NCBI GenBank assembly: GCA_951406725.2
Contig: OX597841.1
Coordinates: 5,518,001-5,582,000, forward strand
Direction of reading: 5' to 3'
Source of the DNA: Octopus vulgaris
Taxonomy: Eukaryota
Length of the DNA stretch: 64,000 bases
Below are positions 3,990 to 46,675 of the stretch, piece after piece; positions within the stretch are counted from its first letter, which is position 1; each line of letters starts with the position of its first letter. Made by a program: the position numbers and the translations under genes. A model generated the notes under the pieces. It had not been told where the DNA came from. It made no database searches and saw only the letters and a program-made list of their open reading frames with translations.

Positions 3990-4860
3990 CCCGAGCAAAA
4001 AAAAAAAAAAAAAAAAATAGTGCAATAGGTGTATAACAATATATAGTAAACGAATATTTTAAAAAATCTGCACTGGCGAACGGGGGTCGGGGGAGAGGAC
4101 TCGGAAAATTCACATGGAGAATGTTCCGAGTCCTCTCACCACTTCACCGTCCGTCGTCGAAATTTTTTTCTTCATATTCGTTTAATACACTTTATTTTAC
4201 ACCTAGTACACTAATTTTTGGGGTTTTTTTTCAATTTTTGTGACAGGGGGTTGGTGGGGTGCGGACTCGAATAATTCACACGATCCAGTGACTCTGGTCG
4301 AACACTGGAGTTTAAAGGTCAACGTCTGAATTTTCCGAGTCCTCTCCACCGCCCCACCCCCGTTCGCAAGCTCGCATTGTTTGTTTGTTTTTGATGTTTT
4401 TGATGTTTTTTTCATATTCGGGCGATCCTTCGGTATAGGTACCGTACGTACCGGAAGTGGCTTTCTTTACATTTCTGAAGATAACAGAAACCCTTTTCTC
4501 CTACCCCTAACCCTAACACAAACCCTAACCCCCCCCCATACATATATAAAAAATGTCATGAAATGTATCCAGTACTTCCGGTACCTATACCGAAGTTACG
4601 CCCATATTCGTTTACTACCTGTTGTGTTACACCTATTACACTATTTCTTTTCTCATTTTCGTGACCAGGTGGGGTTACTGGATCGTGTGAATTATCTGAG
4701 TCTCGCACCCCACCCGAACACAATTTTTTTTTTTTTAAATAAGTGCACTAGGTGTAAAATAAACATGTAATAAACAAATATGAAGCAAAAAAAGAAAAAT
4801 TCGCCAACGGACTGAGAAGTGGTGAGAGGACTCGGAACATCCCCGATGTGAATTTTCCAA
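3990..4860. repeat. Nested inverted-repeat remnants (old MITE-like family)
   Basis: GAGAGGACTCGGAAAATTCAC-type motifs recur in both orientations. 4100-4215 is the reverse complement of ~4740-4855, and a related piece lies at ~47320-47390. Confidence 0.5.
4421..4602. mobile_element. MITE with GG...CC termini and perfect 8-bp TSD (Merlin-like)
   Basis: TIR GGCGATCCTTCGGTATAGGTACCG / CCGGTACCTATACCGAAGTTACGCC. TSD CATATTCG at 4413-4420 and 4603-4610. Confidence 0.85.
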
Positions 4861-5033
4861 GTCAAACCGTTCAACAGTTACCAGCATGGAAAATGTGTTC
4901 TATCATGGTGATGATGACATTTTTGGATAGAGTGTCTTCAATCATGTTTGTCCAGTCAAAGCTGACCTGGGGCTGAATAACCATGTCCAATTATATTTCT
5001 GGAAAGAGAAATTTATTGTTGACTGTTTTGTAG

Positions 5034-5077
<44 letters not shown>

Positions 5078-5080
5078 GTA

Positions 5081-5492
5081 TATAATTTACAAGATAAGGG
5101 CAAAAGAAAAATTTAATGCCGAAAAAAAGACAATAATTGTCAATAAACCATTATAATTTATGTGTCTCGAAACAAACCGATAGAAATCTCTAAAAAATTT
5201 CAGCGTATTTGCCGCTGAAGAGGGGAAAATTTCTTACGAGTTAACCCCGAAATTGGACCAATACGGTAATAACAAATCTTTTTGAGATTTCAATCGGTTT
5301 GTTTCAAGACGCATAAATTATAATGGTTTATTGACAATTATTGTCTTTTTTTTCGGCATATTTGGCATTAGAATTTTTCTTTTGCCCTTATCTTGTAAAT
5401 TATTTATAAATTTAACCTTTAAAGGTATTTTTTGATATGCTGGCCATTGATAAAATTTTTTTCCCGAAAAAAAAAATGTTATCCTACATTAG

Positions 5493-5495
<3 letters not shown>
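5081..5495 (+). mobile_element. Penelope-like terminal-repeat (pLTR) relic with inverted partial copy, in (TA)n
   Basis: 5083-5200 is the reverse complement of ~5272-5403, with a hammerhead between them. (TA)n lies on both sides, and the insert is absent at the paralogous site near 14085-14097. Confidence 0.7.
5209..5269 (+). ncRNA. Type I hammerhead ribozyme
   Basis: Stem I TTGCCG/CGGTAA; core CTGAAGA (5215-5221); stem II GGGG/CCCC; GAAA (5249-5252); stem III (A)TTG-GAC-CAA(T); predicted AUA cleavage after 5263. Confidence 0.8.
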
Positions 5496-5533
<38 letters not shown>

Positions 5534-6162
5534 TATAATGTTAACACAATGTGAAGGTGTATCTCTAGTTTACAAATGTGTATGCTTCTGTTATGTAGAT
5601 TTTAGTAAATTAAAATGTTCAGTCGTTAAAGTAAATATTTGTTCCTGCAATTAATCTCTATAGAAATGTTATCAATTTTCCACTATTAAATCTCTGATTT
5701 TCAATTAGCCTCTGTATTTTAATCTGATGTTTCTTTGTTATTTCAGATTAATAGATGGACTAACAGAAGATGCACCTTCAAGCCATTCCATCTTTTAAAG
5801 ACTGAATGTAAATGTTATATGGAAGAGACAGCTAGCATTATTTCTATGAATTCATTGTAAAATTCCAAAGACATTTTGCTCTGAACTGAGATTATCAGCA
5901 AAATTTCTGCCGTAATCTGGAGTGTATACCAAATGAGTTTTGTGTGCTCTAATTAAACTTGGAGAAATTTTCATAAGAGATTGTAGATAAAGGTAACATT
6001 GAACAGAAATACAGCAGCAGAAAAAGTTGTAAAGAATAAACAATAGAAACAAAATCAACAAGAAATATATAGAAATATAGAAATATTTTGATTTGAGAAG
6101 GGAAAAGTATTGCAAAAACGTCAAAAGCTTAAATTGATTTTTTCTTGAAGACATACCTTAAG

Positions 6163-8019
6163 ATGGAGGAAAACCATCATGTGACTTTAATATCTGAAAA
6201 GTCATTCTCCCAGAAAGGTAACCAGTTTAAACACAAGCGTATTCATACAGGGAAGAAACAATATGGATGTGATATCTGTGGCAAATCATTCTCTCAGAAT
6301 GGATACCTAACTAAACACAAACGTACTCATACAGGGGAGAAGCCATATCACTGTGATATCTGTGGCAAATCATTCTCTCAGAAAGGAAACCTAACTACAC
6401 ACAAACGTACTCATACAGGAGAGAAACCATATCGCTGTGATATCTGTGGTAAATCACTCTGTGAAAGTGATAAGTTAACTGAACACAAACGTATTCACAC
6501 AGGAGAGAAACCATATCACTGTGATATCTGTGGCAAATCCTTCTCTCGGAATGGAAGCCTAACTACACACAAACGTACTCATACAGGAGAGAAGCCATAT
6601 CACTGTGATATCTGTGGTAAATCATTCTCTGAAGGCAGTGCTCTGAATTCTCACAAGCGAATTCATACAGGGGAGAAACCATATTGCTGTAATATCTGTG
6701 GTAAATCATTCACTCAATGTTTTGACTTAACTAAACACAAACGAATTCATACAGGAGAGAAGCCGTATCACTGTGATGTCTGCGGTAAATCATTCTCTTT
6801 GACATCAAGCCTAACTACACACAAACGTATTCATACAGGAGAGAAACCATATAAGTGTGGCATCTGTGGTAAATCTTTCACCCGAAATAATACGTTAACT
6901 GCTCACAAACGGATTCATACGGGAGAGAAGCCATATCAGTGTGATATCTGTAGTAAATCATTTTCTCGATATGAATGCTTCACTTTACACAAGCGTCTAC
7001 ATACAGGAGAAAAACCATATCAGTGTAATATCTGTGGTAAAACATTCACTTCAACTTCTCAGTTACGATCACACAAACGTATTCATACAGGAGAGAGGCC
7101 TTATCACTGTGATATATGCGGTAAATCATTCCATAAAAGTAATGCTTTAAAAGTACATAAATCTATTCATACAGGAGAGAAGCCATATAACTGTGATATC
7201 TGTGGTAAATCATTCTGTCAAAAGGTTGATTTAAATAAACATAGGCGTATTCACACAGGTGAGAAGCCATACAGTTGTGATATCTGTGGTAAATCATTTT
7301 CTCAAAATATTCACTTAACATCTCACCAACGTATTCATACAGGAGAGAAGCCATATCAGTGTAATATCTGTGGTAAATCATTCTCTGGAAGCAGTGCTTT
7401 GAATTCTCACAAACGTATTCATACAGGAGAGAAGCCATACCAGTGTGATATCTGCAATAAATATTTTTTGCGCTCTGACTATTTGACTATTCACAAACGT
7501 ATTCATACAGGAGAGAAACCATTTCAGTGTGATGTCTGTAAGAAGTCATTCTCTGACAGAACTAGATTAAGAACACACAAGTATATTCATACAGGAAAGA
7601 AGCCATACCAGTGTGATATTTGTGGGAAGTCATTCTCTCAAAGTAGTAATTTGATGACACACAAGCGTAGTCACACAGGGGAGAAGCCATATCGGTGTAA
7701 TATCTGCAGTAAATCATTCTCTGTAAGTTCTAGCTTAACAATACATAGACGTATTCATACAGGAGAGAAACCATTTCAGTGTGATATTTGTAAGAAGTCA
7801 TTCTCTGACAGTAGTAGTTTAAAAGCACACAAGTGTAGTCACACTGGTGAGAAACCATATCAGTGCAATATCTGTGGTAAATCATTCTCTTTTAGTAGTA
7901 ACTTAACAATACATAAACGTACTCATACAGGGGAGAAGCCTTATAAATGTGATATTTGTAGCAGATCATTTTCTCAACTTAGTAATTTAAGATTACACAA
8001 ATGTCCTCATACAGGATAG
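6163..8019 (+). CDS. Poly-C2H2 zinc-finger protein ZNF1 (~21 fingers, 618 aa)
   Basis: Uninterrupted CxxC-x12-HxxxH repeats with TGEKPY linkers. First ATG is 6163 (AAGATGG); the ORF-track start at 6145 is TTG. Putative intron 3388-5746; AATAAA at 8877. Confidence 0.92.
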
Positions 8020-19019: not shown

Positions 19020-20037
19020 TATAGATCAGAAAGATAGGGTTCGAGTAGACAGGGGTGCTAGAAAGAAATTAGATAACATTATATGTAATGATACCAGTGG
19101 TACCTGCCTTAAATATAGAAACAAAGACTGGAATAGGATACAAAGAACTTGTGACAAAGCAAATAGGGCAAACACATGGTATAAAACTGACCAATATCAA
19201 GGAGTGATGTTTGTAGAGGCCACAGCCCATGGAGAACTAGCTCGTAGATTTAGAAAATCCCTGAAGGAGACCAAATTCAACATTAAGATTGTTGAAAAAC
19301 CGGGGAACTCCGTCAGATCACAACTATTATTTCTTTACTACCCACAAGGGGCTGAACACAGAGGGAACAAACAAGGACAGACAGACGGATTAAGTCGATT
19401 ACATCGACCCCAGTGCACAACTGGTAATTAATTTATCTTTAAGGCGGCGAGCTGGCAGAAACGTTAGCACGCTGGGCAAAATGCGTAGCCGTATTTCGTC
19501 TGCCGTTACGTTCTGAGTTCAAATTCCGCCGAGGTCGACTTTGCCTTTCATCCTTTCGGGGTCGATAAATTAAGTACCAGTTACACACTGGGGTGGATGT
19601 AATCGACTTAATCTGTTTGTCCCCTCTGTGTTTAGCCCCTTGTGGGTAGTAAAGAAATAGGTACTTAATTTATCAACCCCGAAAGGATGAAAGGCAAAGT
19701 CGACCTCAGATCACAACTATGTAGGACGCACCCCTTTCAGAATACCATATGCACCAATGATAAATGCATGGTATGTAGGGTTAGCCCTGGCATTAACTGT
19801 GGAACTCGAAATGTAGTTTACAGCATAAGATGCATAGAAGGTGCTTGTAGAGACATGAACATGACGCACATAGGGGAGACATCTAGGAGCATTGCGGAAC
19901 AACCAAATGAACATCGGAGACAATATGACGACAAAAAGCAGTCCTCCATACTCTACCAACATGGAGGCAACTTGGGTCAACTTGACATCCGCATCTTATC
20001 CAAGCACTCAGACAAATATGGAAGTATGTCCTTATAA
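19020..20037 (+). pseudogene. Penelope-like element ORF relic (C-terminal region with GIY-YIG endonuclease)
   Basis: Removing the SINE-B insert (15-bp TSD TCAGATCACAACTAT at 19313 and 19706) joins both ORFs in frame. Cys-rich linker then VVYSIRC..C....HIGETSR......EH, the PLE GIY-YIG signature. Confidence 0.8.
19328..19705. mobile_element. SINE-B composite: plus copy nested in a minus copy
   Basis: Inner copy ~19441-19660 bracketed by GGTA(A/C)TTAATTTATC. Confidence 0.85.
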
Positions 20038-20147
20038 ATGAAACTTCTCCAATACTAAATAGGAAATATAGGTAGTAGATATTATACCCACAGTTTACAC
20101 AGGTAAGAGTAGAATAGTTGGTGGGCTGTTATGTAGACAGATGTATA

Positions 20148-42025: not shown

Positions 42026-42054
42026 TACGATTAAACGGTAGGTTTAATGCACTC

Positions 42055-45000
42055 TGTTACTTGTTTCAGTCATTTGACTGCGGCCATGCTGGAGCACCGC
42101 CGTTAGTCGAGCAAATCGACCCCGGGACTTATTCTTTGTAAGCCCAGTACTTATTCTATCGGTCTCTTTTACTTGTTTCAGTCATTTGACTGCAGCCATG
42201 CTGGAGCACTGCCGTTAGTCGAGCAAATCGACCCCGGGACTTATTCTTTGTAAGCCCAGTACTTATTCTATCGGTCTCTTTTACTTGTTTCAGTCATTTG
42301 ACTGTGGCCATGCTGGAGCACCGCCGTTAGTCGAGCAAATCGACCCCGGGACTTATTCTTTGTAAGCCTAGTACTTATTCTATCGGTCTCTTTTACTTGT
42401 TTCAGTCATTTGACTGCGGCCATGCTGGAGCACCGCCGTTAGTCGAGCAAATCGACCCCGGGACTTATTCTTTGTAAGCCTAGTACTTATTCTATCGGTC
42501 TCTTTTACTTGTTTCAGTCATTTGACTGCGGCCATGCTGGAGCACTGCCGTTAGTCGAGCAAATCGACCCCAGGACCTATTCTTTGTAAGCCTTGTACTT
42601 ATTCTATCGGTCTCTTTTACTTGTTTCAGTCATTTGACTGCGGCCATGCTGGAGCACCGCCGTTAGTCGAGCAAATCGACCCCGGGACTTATTCTTTGTA
42701 AGCCCAGTACTTATTCTATCGGTCTCTTTTATTTGTTTCAGTCATTTGACTGCAGCCATGCTGGAGCACTGCCGTTAGTCGAGCAAATCGACCCCAGGAC
42801 CTATTCTTTGTAAGCCTTGTACTTATTCTATCGGTCTTCTTTTACTTGTTTCAGTCATTTGACTGTGGCCATGCTGGAGCACCGCCGTTAGTCGAGCAAA
42901 TCGACCCCAGGACCTATTCTTTGTAAGCCTTGTACTTATTCTATCGGTCTCTTTTACTTGTTTCAGTCATTTGACTGTGGCCATGCTGGAGCACCGCCGT
43001 TGGTCGAGCAAATCGACCCCAGGACCTATTCTTTGTAAGCCTTGTACTTATTCTATCGGTCTCTTTTACTTGTTTCAGTCATTTGACTGTGGCCATGCTG
43101 GAGCACCGCCGTTAGTCGAGCAAATCGACCCCAGGACCTATTCTTTGTAAGCCTTGTACTTATTCTATCGGTCTCTTTTACTTGTTTCAGTCATTTGACT
43201 GTGGCCATGCTGGAGCACTGCCGTTAGTCGAGCAAATCGACCCCAGGACCTATTCTTTGTAAGCCTTGTACTTATTCTATCGGTCTCTTTTACTTGTTTC
43301 AGTCATTTGACTGTGGCCATGCTGGAGCACCGCCGTTGGTCGAGCAAATCGACCCCAGGACCTATTCTTTGTAAGCCTTGTACTTATTCTATCGGTCTCT
43401 TTTACTTGTTTCAGTCATTTGACTGTGGCCATGCTGGAGCACCGCCGTTAGTCGAGCAAATCGACCCCAGGACTTATTCTTTGTAAGCCTTGTACTTATT
43501 CTATCGGTCTCTTTTACTTGTTTCAGTCATTTGACTGCGGCCATGCTGGAGCACCGCCGTTAGTCGAGCAAATCGACCCCGGGACTTATTCTTTGTAAGC
43601 CTAGTACTTATTCTATCGGTCTCTTTTACTTGTTTCAGTCATTTGACTGCGGCCATGCTGGAGCACCGCCGTTAGTCGAGCAAATCGACCCCGGACTTAT
43701 TCTTTGTAAGCCTAGTACTTATTCTATCGGTCTCTTTTACTTGTTTCAGTCATTTGACTGTGGCCATGCTGGAGCACTGCCGTTAGTCGAGCAAATCGAC
43801 CCCAGGACTTATTCTTTGTAAGCCTTGTACTTATTCTATCGGTCTCTTTTACTTGTTTCAGTCATTTGACTGTGGCCATGCTGGAGCACTGCCGTTAGTC
43901 GAGCAAATCGACCCCAGGACTTATTCTTTGTAAGCCTTGTACTTATTCTATCGGTCTCTTTTACTTGTTTCAGTCATTTGACTGTGGCCATGCTGGAGCA
44001 CTGCCGTTAGTCGAGCAAATCGACCCCAGGACTTATTCTTTGTAAGCCTTGTACTTATTCTATCGGTCTCTTTTACTTGTTTCAGTCATTTGACTGTGGC
44101 CATGCTGGAGCACTGCCGTTAGTCGAGCAAATCGACCCCAGGACCTATTCTTTGTAAGCCTTGTACTTATTCTATCGGTCTCTTTTACTTGTTTCAGTCA
44201 TTTGACTGCAGCCATGCTGGAGCACTGCCGTTAGTCGAGCAAATCGACCCCAGGACTTATTCTTTGTAAGCCTTGTACTTATTCTATCGGTCTCTTTTAC
44301 TTGTTTCAGTCATTTGACTGTGGCCATGCTGGAGCACTGCCGTTAGTCGAGCAAATCGACCCCAGGACCTATTCTTTGTAAGCCTTGTACTTATTCTATC
44401 GGTCTCTTTTACTTGTTTCAGTCATTTGACTGTGGCCATGCTGGAGCACCGCCGTTAGTCGAGCAAATCGACCCCAGGACCTATTCTTTGTAAGCCTTGT
44501 ACTTATTCTATCGGTCTCTTTTACTTGTTTCAGTCATTTGACTGTGGCCATGCTGGAGCACTGCCGTTAGTCGAGCAAATCGACCCCAGGACTTATTCTT
44601 TGTAAGCCCAGTACTTATTCTATCGGTCTCTTTTACTTGTTTCAGTCATTTGACTGTGGCCATGCTGGAGCACCGCCGTTAGTCGAGCAAATCGACCCCA
44701 GGACCTATTCTTTGTAAGCCTTGTACTTATTCTATCGGTCTCTTTTACTTGTTTCAGTCATTTGACTGTGGCCATGCTGGAGCACCGCCGTTAGTCGAGC
44801 AAATCGACCCCAGGACCTATTCTTTGTAAGCCTTGTACTTATTCTATCGGTCTCTTTTACTTGTTTCAGTCATTTGACTGTGGCCATGCTGGAGCACCGC
44901 CGTTAGTCGAGCAAATCGACCCCAGGACCTATTCTTTGTAAGCCTTGTACTTATTCTATCGGTCTCTTTTACTTGTTTCAGTCATTTGACTGTGGCCATG

Positions 45001-46408
45001 CTGGAGCACTGCCGTTAGTCGAGCAAATCGACCCCAGGACTTATTCTTTGTAAGCCTTGTACTTATTCTATCGGTCTCTTTTACTTGTTTCAGTCATTTG
45101 ACTGTGGCCATGCTGGAGCACCGCCGTTAGTCGAGCAAATCGACCCCAGGACTTATTCTTTGTAAGCCCAGTACTTATTCTATCGGTCTCTTTTACTTGT
45201 TTCAGTCATTTGACTGTGGCCATGCTGGAGCACCGCCGTTAGTCGAGCAAATCGACCCCAGGACCTATTCTTTGTAAGCCTTGTACTTATTCTATCGGTC
45301 TCTTTTACTTGTTTCAGTCATTTGACTGTGGCCATGCTGGAGCACCGCCGTTAGTCGAGCAAATCAACCCCAGGACCTATTCTTTGTAAGCCTTGTACTT
45401 ATTCTATCGGTCTCTTTTACTTGTTTCAGTCATTTGACTGTGGCCATGCTGGAGCACCGCCGTTAGTCGAGCAAATCGACCCCAGGACCTATTCTTTGTA
45501 AGCCTTGTACTTATTCTATCGGTCTCTTTTACTTGTTTCAGTCATTTGACTGTGGCCATGCTGGAGCACTGCCGTTAGTCGAGCAAATCGACCCCGGGAC
45601 TTATTCTTTGAAAAGCCCAGTACTTATTCTATCGGTCTCTTTTATTTGTTTCAGTCATTTGACTGTGGCCATGCTGGAGCACCGCCTTTAGTCGAGCAAA
45701 TCGACCCCAGGACCTATTCTTTGTAAGCCTTGTACTTATTCTATCGGTCTCTTTTACTTGTTTCAGTCATTTGACTGTGGCCATGCTGGAGCACCGCCGT
45801 TAGTCGAGCAAATCGACCCCAGGACCTATTCTTTGTAAGCCTAGTACTTATTCTATCGGTCTCTTTTACTTGTTTCAGTCATTTGACTGTGGCCATGCTG
45901 GAGCACCGCCGTTAGTCGAGCAAATCGACCCCAGGACTTATTCTATCGGTCTCTTTTACTTGTTTCAGTCATTTGACTGCGGCCATGCTGGAGCACCGCC
46001 GTTAGTCGAGCAAATCGACCCCAGGACTTATTCTTTGTAAGCCTAGTACTTATTCTATCGGTCTCTTTTACTTGTTTCAGTCATTTGACTGTGGCCATGC
46101 TGGAGCACCGCCGTTAGTCGAGCAAATCGACCCCAGGACCTATTCTTTGTAAGCCTAGTACTTATTCTATCGGTCTCTTTTACTTGTTTCAGTCATTTGA
46201 CTGCGGCCATGCTGGAGCACCGCTGTTAGTCGAGCAAATCGACCCCGGGACTTATTCTTTGTAAGCCTAGTACTTATTATTCTATCGGTCTCTTTTACTT
46301 GTTTCAGTCATTTGACTGCGGCCATGCTGGAGCACCGCATTTCAATCGAGCAAATCGACCCCGGGACCTATTCTTTGTAAGCCCAGTACTTATTCTATCG
46401 GTCTCTTT
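42055..46408 (-). repeat. 112-bp tandem satellite (~39 units) derived from the SINE-A 3' end
   Basis: Period 112 bp (42061 to 42173). The last unit runs directly into the rest of a SINE-A (46409-46675). Confidence 0.97.
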
Positions 46409-46675
46409 TGCCGAACCGATACGTTACGGGGACGTAAACACACCATCATCGGTTGTCAAGCGATGTTGGGGGGACAAACACAGACATACAAACATATATA
46501 TATATATGCATATATACGACGGGCTTCTTTCAGTTTCCGTCTACCAAATCCACTCACAAGGCTTTGGTCAGCCCGAGGCTATAGTAGAAGACACTTGCCC
46601 AAGGTACCACGCAGTGGGACTGAACCCGGAACAATGTAGTTGCTAAGCAAGCTACTTACCTTACAGCCACTCCTC
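46409..46675 (-). mobile_element. SINE-A head and body contiguous with the satellite
   Basis: Reverse complement of the SINE-A head, (TA)n and mid body. Confidence 0.9.

What the first reader, a model, noticed from the sequence alone, without database searches (positions are those of the whole stretch)
5081..5405. Complete hammerhead ribozyme, sense in the ZNF1 intron, at the tip of a ~120-bp inverted repeat
Seen: all catalytic core positions are intact (CUGAAGA, GAAA, AUA site after 5263), all three stems can form, and 5083-5200 and 5272-5403 are complementary. The insert is missing from paralogous introns. Known: Penelope-like elements carry type I hammerheads in their terminal repeats and often insert with an inverted partial copy. 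Inference: in the pre-mRNA the flanking duplex could clamp stem I and let a ribozyme with a weak stem III cleave as a monomer. This would give ZNF1 alone a competition between self-cleavage and splicing, and a dsRNA target for ADAR.
Basis: partly seen in the sequence, partly recalled or inferred. Interest (0 to 1): 0.8.

Follow-up and report, generated by a model that had tools for sequence, protein, structure and literature searches.

The report
Hammerhead retrozyme with Penelope-type insertion scar
The hairpin is one of hundreds of copies of a small, protein-less repeat carrying a hammerhead (self-cutting RNA) motif, likely pasted in by a Penelope-type retrotransposon enzyme; this copy is predicted to fold its ribozyme shut, so it is unlikely to be a switch for the zinc-finger gene.

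Summary
In detail: an intact type I hammerhead (5209-5269, predicted cut after 5263) sits between ~120-bp inverted arms, and five paralogous sites lack the insert. It is not a one-off. The insert runs 5082-~5497 inside a (TA)n tract and belongs to an ORF-less, ~470-bp tandem-unit family (at least 290 exact hammerhead matches): a non-LTR retrozyme. Copies end at two fixed points 90 nt apart, and two-armed insertions carry one end of each kind (44 of 46). This matches the Penelope 'tail', which has been shown to mark two reverse-transcription start sites. An autonomous Neptune-like element (13 of 14) and an unrelated 481-bp retrozyme (10 of 10) in this genome follow the same rule. The hairpin is therefore likely an insertion by-product. 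The clamp idea is not supported: arms alone help about 4-fold in folding models, but the inversion junction buries the catalytic core about 400-fold, making this the worst-folding of 35 intact copies. Covariation favours dimer cleavage. No RNA data showed splicing, cleavage or editing, and the mobilising partner was not found. Verdict: new member of a known kind, with a useful mechanistic fingerprint.

The parts
5037..5081 (.). (TA)n tract, left target flank
   Evidence: paralogs have a short TA tract at the empty site
5082..5199 (-). Inverted arm: unit positions ~73-202, ending at fixed end A against the TA tract
   Evidence: A ends in 63 of 147 outward ends
5199..5205 (+). Inversion junction; predicted to pair with 5213-5219 and bury the catalytic core
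   Evidence: pair probability 0.93-1.0; lowest of 35 intact copies
5203..5497 (+). Forward arm: unit positions 1-~292, 5'-truncated, ending at fixed end B
   Evidence: 95.6% to the nearest other copies
5209..5269 (+). Type I hammerhead, intact core, predicted cut after 5263, palindromic stem III
5405..5497 (+). ~90-nt 'tail' between ends A and B, present on one arm only; contains a short hairpin (~5450-5483)
5498..5540 (.). (TA)n tract, right target flank
5745..5746 (+). Likely 3' splice acceptor of the host ZNF gene, ~250 nt downstream of the insert
   Evidence: conserved in 4 of 5 paralogs aligned; not shown by a splice joint
6133..8019 (+). Host C2H2 zinc-finger ORF (628 aa stop to stop), one of a cluster

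Best explanation
The feature is one 5'-truncated, two-armed copy of an ORF-less hammerhead repeat family with a ~470-bp tandem unit (a non-LTR retrozyme), likely inserted into a (TA)n tract by a Penelope-like reverse transcriptase/endonuclease working in trans, and its ribozyme is predicted to be folded shut at this locus. Steps: (1, inferred) source loci are transcribed as multimers that self-cleave, likely as double hammerheads, and may circularise. (2, inferred) The PLE enzyme nicks both strands of (TA)n and starts cDNA at two internal sites, ~140 and ~230 nt past the cut site, one per strand. (3, shown as a sequence pattern) The two 5'-truncated copies are joined back to back, giving inverted arms with one end A and one end B; both arms carry the same minor variants. 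(4, inferred) The template was circular or uncut RNA, since arms read through cut sites and do not pile up at them. (5, predicted) In this copy the junction sequesters the core and no second hammerhead lies in cis, so the host gene is likely little affected.
For: Copy number: 290 exact hammerhead-pattern matches, control 0; 1766 candidates, 40 scored. Seamless tandem laps of ~470 bp, no frame over 60 aa. Of 147 outward ends, 68 are B, 63 A, 16 other; 107 abut TA-rich DNA. Of 59 two-armed loci, 46 have both ends classifiable: 44 A+B, 1 A+A, 1 B+B; 18 of 20 in the sets not found with an arm query. PLE RT starts at two internal sites on both strands and the 'tail' lies between them (PMC11167929). 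Same rule in an autonomous Neptune-like PLE, 13 of 14, and in an unrelated 481-bp retrozyme, 10 of 10. Opposite arms share 84 of 133 minor variants against 18 expected. 115 of 161 arms cross a cut site; 3 of 161 start within 4 nt of it. Stems I-III covary across three ~70%-identical families, including the pair that flanks a single base and can only form in a dimer (G-C 23, A-U 9).
Against: No autonomous element sharing the unit was found; the PLE families examined carry different, U3-A8 hammerhead-like motifs. The two-site model was shown for a lizard Poseidon element with a 30-40-nt tail; here the tail is ~90 nt. Loci were found with hammerhead- or arm-containing queries, which inflates read-through counts. 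Shared variants could come from gene conversion between arms. The covariation counts reflect about three lineages, not 34 independent events. No cleavage, circular RNA or strand-specific expression was shown. Folding models omit tertiary contacts and proteins; the lizard hammerhead needed the PLE protein to cut (PMC11167929).
Confidence: 0.8

Rival explanations
1. One reading: the flanking duplex clamps stem I in the ZNF pre-mRNA, the ribozyme cuts as a monomer, and cleavage competes with splicing as a gene-specific control.
For: Intact core in sense, ~250 nt upstream of a likely acceptor. Stem III can form 4 bp with a 3-nt loop. With the junction hairpin forbidden the arms raise the active fold from 4.4e-3 to 1.7e-2. 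Most invertebrate type I hammerheads cut as monomers (PMC7761336 passage).
Against: Natural sequence: 4e-5 at 37 C and 7e-5 at 18 C; lowest of 35 intact copies, whose median is 6e-2; the outer stem I pair is also mutated here. Inverted arms are routine in the family. No conservation in paralogs. Eight of nine Xenopus retrozyme dimers did not cut in vitro (bioRxiv 2026.07.22.740005).
Confidence: 0.07
2. The copies are 5'-truncated termini (pLTRs) of an autonomous PLE that was not sampled, not an independent non-autonomous family.
For: Truncated PLE ends look similar and are common (PMC4209133). Only a few hundred of >1700 candidates were examined.
Against: Every long arm loops seamlessly from unit end to unit start, up to 2.7 laps, without entering an ORF. 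Four families at ~70% identity keep the same closed unit. PLE coding fragments near 7 loci lie outside the elements.
Confidence: 0.08
3. The hairpin is a MITE-like DNA element with terminal inverted repeats, or a fold-back DNA duplication, that happens to hold a hammerhead.
For: A 325-bp near-perfect hairpin in TA; junctions often show a few bases of overlap.
Against: Arm lengths vary freely; 29 of 88 loci have no inverted arm; the two ends differ by the 90-nt tail. In 16 of 51 simple two-armed loci neither arm is contained in the other, which a single fold-back cannot give.
Confidence: 0.04

Closest known systems
Metazoan non-LTR retrozymes (Cervera and de la Pena 2020, PMC7229834; Li et al. 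2026, bioRxiv 10.64898/2026.07.22.740005)
   Same: ORF-less tandem units with one type I hammerhead each, low GC, palindromic stem III, a predicted self-paired circle (z = -4.1), co-occurring PLEs.
   Different: Unit 474 bp (150-450 in the 2020 paper, up to 972 in the 2026 one); mostly dispersed copies of 0.5-2.7 laps; strict (TA)n target; inverted arms with two fixed, mutually exclusive ends, not mentioned in the parts of these papers that I read; circular RNA not shown here.
EN+ Penelope-like elements (Poseidon PAc, Neptune, Hydra, Naiad; PMC11167929, PMC8557442)
   Same: 5' truncation, inverted 5'-truncated copy, one-sided tail, internal start sites downstream of the hammerhead, (TA)n bias.
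   Different: No RT or GIY-YIG ORF; tail ~90 nt against 30-40; full C3-G8 hammerhead with stem III, not the minimal form; no sequence link to the PLE termini examined.
Non-autonomous Chlamys elements such as MRC1 (PMC8557442, passage)
   Same: Non-autonomous PLE passengers with head-to-tail copies.
   Different: Chlamys and Naiad elements lack canonical hammerheads, and those passengers resemble their partner at the 3' end; no partner was found here.
Intronic self-cleaving ribozymes that race splicing (CPEB3; PMC10919898, search listing only)
   Same: A ribozyme in sense orientation upstream of an exon.
   Different: This is a non-conserved repeat insertion with a predicted occluded core; no effect on the gene is shown.

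Membership tests
Type I hammerhead ribozyme | Conserved core with three stems, stem I open | tested here: met
   covariation over 34 sequences, 92.6% cells paired against 82.3% shuffled
Type I hammerhead ribozyme | Match to an Rfam hammerhead model | tested here: not met
   0 hits at gathering score; no hammerhead family among 10 hits at E<=10. A detection limit, not a defining failure
Type I hammerhead ribozyme | Self-cleavage | not testable with these tools
   predicted occluded in this copy
Non-LTR retrozyme | Tandem units of a few hundred bp, each with a type I hammerhead | tested here: met
   family: ~470-bp laps with consecutive hammerheads; this locus holds a single hammerhead, so it fails the two-unit 'active' criterion of Li et al.
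Non-LTR retrozyme | No protein coding | tested here: met
   no frame over 60 aa in six frames of the unit
Non-LTR retrozyme | No LTR, primer-binding site or polypurine tract | tested here: inconclusive
   no LTR architecture in 88 loci; PBS and PPT were not searched for
Non-LTR retrozyme | Expressed as linear and circular monomers | not testable with these tools
   only contigs of runs guessed to be RNA were offered
Autonomous PLE | ORF with RT and GIY-YIG endonuclease | tested here: not met
PLE-mobilised element | 5' truncation, inverted partial copy, one-sided tail from two start sites | tested here: met
   44 of 46 A+B; scattered 5' ends
PLE-mobilised element | Sequence shared with the terminus of an autonomous partner | tested here: inconclusive
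   none in two PLE families compared; other clades not sampled
MITE | Fixed terminal inverted repeats at both ends | tested here: not met
   asymmetric ends, variable arms, 29 of 88 loci without inversion

The most novel reading that the evidence does not exclude
Animal retrozymes carry a readable signature of their mobiliser. Two unrelated hammerhead retrozyme lineages in this genome insert by the Penelope two-site, two-strand priming rule (one end A plus one end B per insertion, both arms from one template, read-through of the cut site, up to ~31 laps in one array). This would be direct genomic evidence that a PLE dimer rolls around retrozyme RNA circles, and that the family seeds many long double-stranded RNA hairpins in a genome with heavy A-to-I editing.
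Probability: 0.5. Interest if true: 0.6.

Novelty: new member of a known kind. Interest (0 to 1): 0.4.

Why it matters
For the zinc-finger gene, probably little: it is a repeat insertion with a predicted silenced ribozyme. For retroelement biology it is useful. A 2020 review says metazoan retrozymes show no motif that points to their mobiliser (PMC7761336), and a 2026 preprint argues for PLEs from co-occurrence and pLTR similarity and leaves the mechanism open. The end-pairing rule gives a mechanistic fingerprint and names exact RT start sites to test with a young, intact PLE enzyme from the same genome. Seven literature searches returned no paper on cephalopod retrozymes; repeat libraries, supplements and subscription journals were not seen.

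Tried and rejected
Rfam: no hammerhead hit. RNA evidence: no listed holder is on record as RNA; four runs laid were contigs only, which cannot show ends, strand or editing; no splice joint across the insert among the 15 joints shown, 126 not shown. Contigs of other family copies span the cut site in two runs guessed to be RNA, and contig depth steps up near the acceptor; both are too weak to use. Partner hunt: the window's PLE fragment family and a young Neptune-like family share no unit sequence; two same-strand hammerheads 2.9 kb apart on C1 were two separate insertions with no RT between them; relatives at ~70% identity are also ORF-less. Hydra and Poseidon clades were not searched. A splice-donor-like motif upstream of the hammerhead in the unit is not conserved across families: rejected as a PLE intron. 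MITE and single fold-back models rejected. Earlier findings of this scan: nothing returned. PMC10886601 passages were irrelevant.

Full report
Observation. The hammerhead is in the sequence as described. The core starts at 5215, stems I, II and III can form with 6, 4 and 4 pairs, and the predicted cut follows 5263. A C3-G8 type I descriptor finds this one site in the window, against 0.02 per simulated window. Rfam misses it. The arms 5082-5199 and 5274-5404 match at 112 of 118 bases with an ~11-nt indel. Five of five paralogous sites aligned lack the insert and show a short TA tract. A likely splice acceptor lies at 5745-5746, conserved in 4 of 5 paralogs, ahead of a 628-aa zinc-finger frame. 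The upstream exon was not found, so 'intron' is an inference.

What it is. The genome (2.8 Gb) gave 1766 candidates, of which 40 were scored, and 290 exact matches to a hammerhead pattern with 0 in the control. The family unit is 474 bp in the reference copy, repeats head to tail without a seam, and has no frame over 60 aa. 114 loci reduced to 88 distinct ones. Of these, 59 have outward-facing inverted arms and 29 do not. Of 147 outward ends, 68 lie at unit position ~292 (B), 63 at ~202 (A) and 16 elsewhere; 107 abut TA-rich DNA. The 5' ends are scattered. The window copy is an inverted arm ending at A plus a forward arm ending at B; its forward arm is 95.6% identical to the nearest other copies. 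Three related families at ~70-75% identity keep the same closed unit. This fits a non-LTR retrozyme (PMC7229834, parts 2-4 of 6 read).

How it likely moves. Among the 59 two-armed loci, 46 have both ends classifiable: 44 have one A and one B, 1 has A+A, 1 has B+B; 13 were set aside for an unclassified end. In the two locus sets not found with an arm query the count is 18 of 20. Frangieh et al. showed that a Penelope-like protein cuts and extends both DNA strands, starts reverse transcription at two internal sites downstream of the hammerhead, and that the genomic tail is the stretch between them; hammerhead cleavage was not needed (PMC11167929, parts 1-2 of 4 read). Craig et al. describe inverted 5'-truncated copies, one-sided tails and (TA)n bias in PLEs (PMC8557442, passages and section 11). 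As an internal control, a young autonomous Neptune-like PLE in this genome pairs a long with a short end in 13 of 14 classifiable two-armed insertions (two more had an unreadable end). An unrelated 481-bp retrozyme does so in 10 of 10, read by eye from loci that I picked for having opposite-strand neighbours; one more had an unclassified end and one showed a single arm. Opposite arms of one locus share 84 of 133 minor variants, against 18 expected from frequency (32 arm pairs), which points to one template, or to later conversion. In 16 of 51 simple two-armed loci neither arm is nested in the other, against a single fold-back. 115 of 161 arms cross a cut site, 15 cross two or more, and only 3 start within 4 nt of it, about what chance gives; the queries favoured hammerhead-bearing loci, so the first number is inflated. 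A cut linear monomer is therefore an unlikely template; a circle or an uncut multimer both fit. I infer two-site, two-strand priming by a PLE enzyme in trans. The partner was not found: two PLE families compared share no unit sequence, and other clades were not searched.

The ribozyme. I aligned 34 of 143 full-length hammerheads, hand-picked for diversity (12 of 118, 9 of 10 and 13 of 15 from three families). 92.6% of cells pair against 82.3% in shuffles, and 77 cells show a two-sided change against 26, though the count of pairs with such a change was not exceptional (58 of 500 shuffles) and the changes come from about three lineages. The innermost stem III pair, which flanks a single base and cannot close in a monomer, switches from G-C to A-U between families. 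A two-molecule fold gives the double-hammerhead stem III. This suggests selection on dimer cleavage in the element's own cycle, as described for type I hammerheads (PMC4209133, part 1 of 4 read).

This copy. The predicted share of active fold is 1e-2 for 5203-5275, 3e-4 for 5200-5280 and 4e-5 with both arms, because 5199-5205 pairs with 5213-5219 and covers the core. If that pairing is forbidden, the arms raise the share from 4.4e-3 to 1.7e-2, so a clamp exists but is small. Among the 35 of 118 copies with fully canonical stems, this one ranks last in both contexts tested. No second family hammerhead lies in the window. These are secondary-structure models without tertiary contacts, proteins or co-transcriptional kinetics. 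The RNA runs offered were contigs of uncertain kind and settled nothing about splicing, cleavage or editing.

Known and new. The class is known. PLE mobilisation of retrozymes is a standing hypothesis: a review says the repeats show no motif that identifies the mobiliser (PMC7761336, passages), and a 2026 preprint supports PLE origin in vertebrates from co-occurrence and terminal similarity (parts 1-3 of 5 read, supplements not seen). Seven searches found no report of cephalopod retrozymes or of the end-pairing rule in retrozymes; repeat databases and supplements, which may list these families, were not seen.

Verdict. Real feature, new member of a known kind. The gene-specific switch is unlikely (0.07). 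The insertion fingerprint shared by two retrozyme lineages and an autonomous PLE is the part worth following. Interest 0.4.

Noticed in passing
L026:1077-1200; L261-L284; G000:C1:64639824-64654958: A second, unrelated ORF-less retrozyme: 481-bp unit, 276 exact hammerhead-pattern matches, (TA)n target, two fixed ends ~120 nt apart; one array has an inverted arm plus ~31 laps ending at the other fixed end.
   Followed up: partly
L175-L179 (e.g. L178:753-4501): Very young autonomous Neptune-like PLE: ~4-kb period, a 495-aa frame and an 811-aa RT (Pfam RVT_1) frame with a GIY-YIG-like C terminus (recalled motif), a U3-A8 hammerhead-like motif and two ends ~40 nt apart; 150 near-identical hits. The clade label is my reading of motifs, not a tree.
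   Followed up: partly
L181-L259: Three older relatives of the window's family at ~70-75% identity keep the unit, the hammerhead stems, the 3' module and a CACGTG-like motif.
   Followed up: partly
window 19024-20146 (+): 3' fragment of another PLE family, split by a short repeat; 80% identical in protein to the ORF in L120.
   Followed up: partly
window 36784 (-), 12538 (-), 39131 (+): U3-A8 minimal-hammerhead-like motifs from the 3' end of that PLE family; also in 19 of 30 of its loci. Stems were not tested.
   Followed up: no
window 42052-46409: Tandem array of a 112-bp unit, ~35 copies at 97%, derived from a dispersed repeat.
   Followed up: no
window 4000-4863: Nested imperfect inverted repeats (4000-4231 self-palindrome; 4098-4217 with 4737-4863), just upstream of the finding.
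   Followed up: no
whole window: Cluster of at least six long C2H2 zinc-finger ORFs on both strands; with a 2.8-Gb genome this suggests an octopus (inference from recalled knowledge).
   Followed up: no
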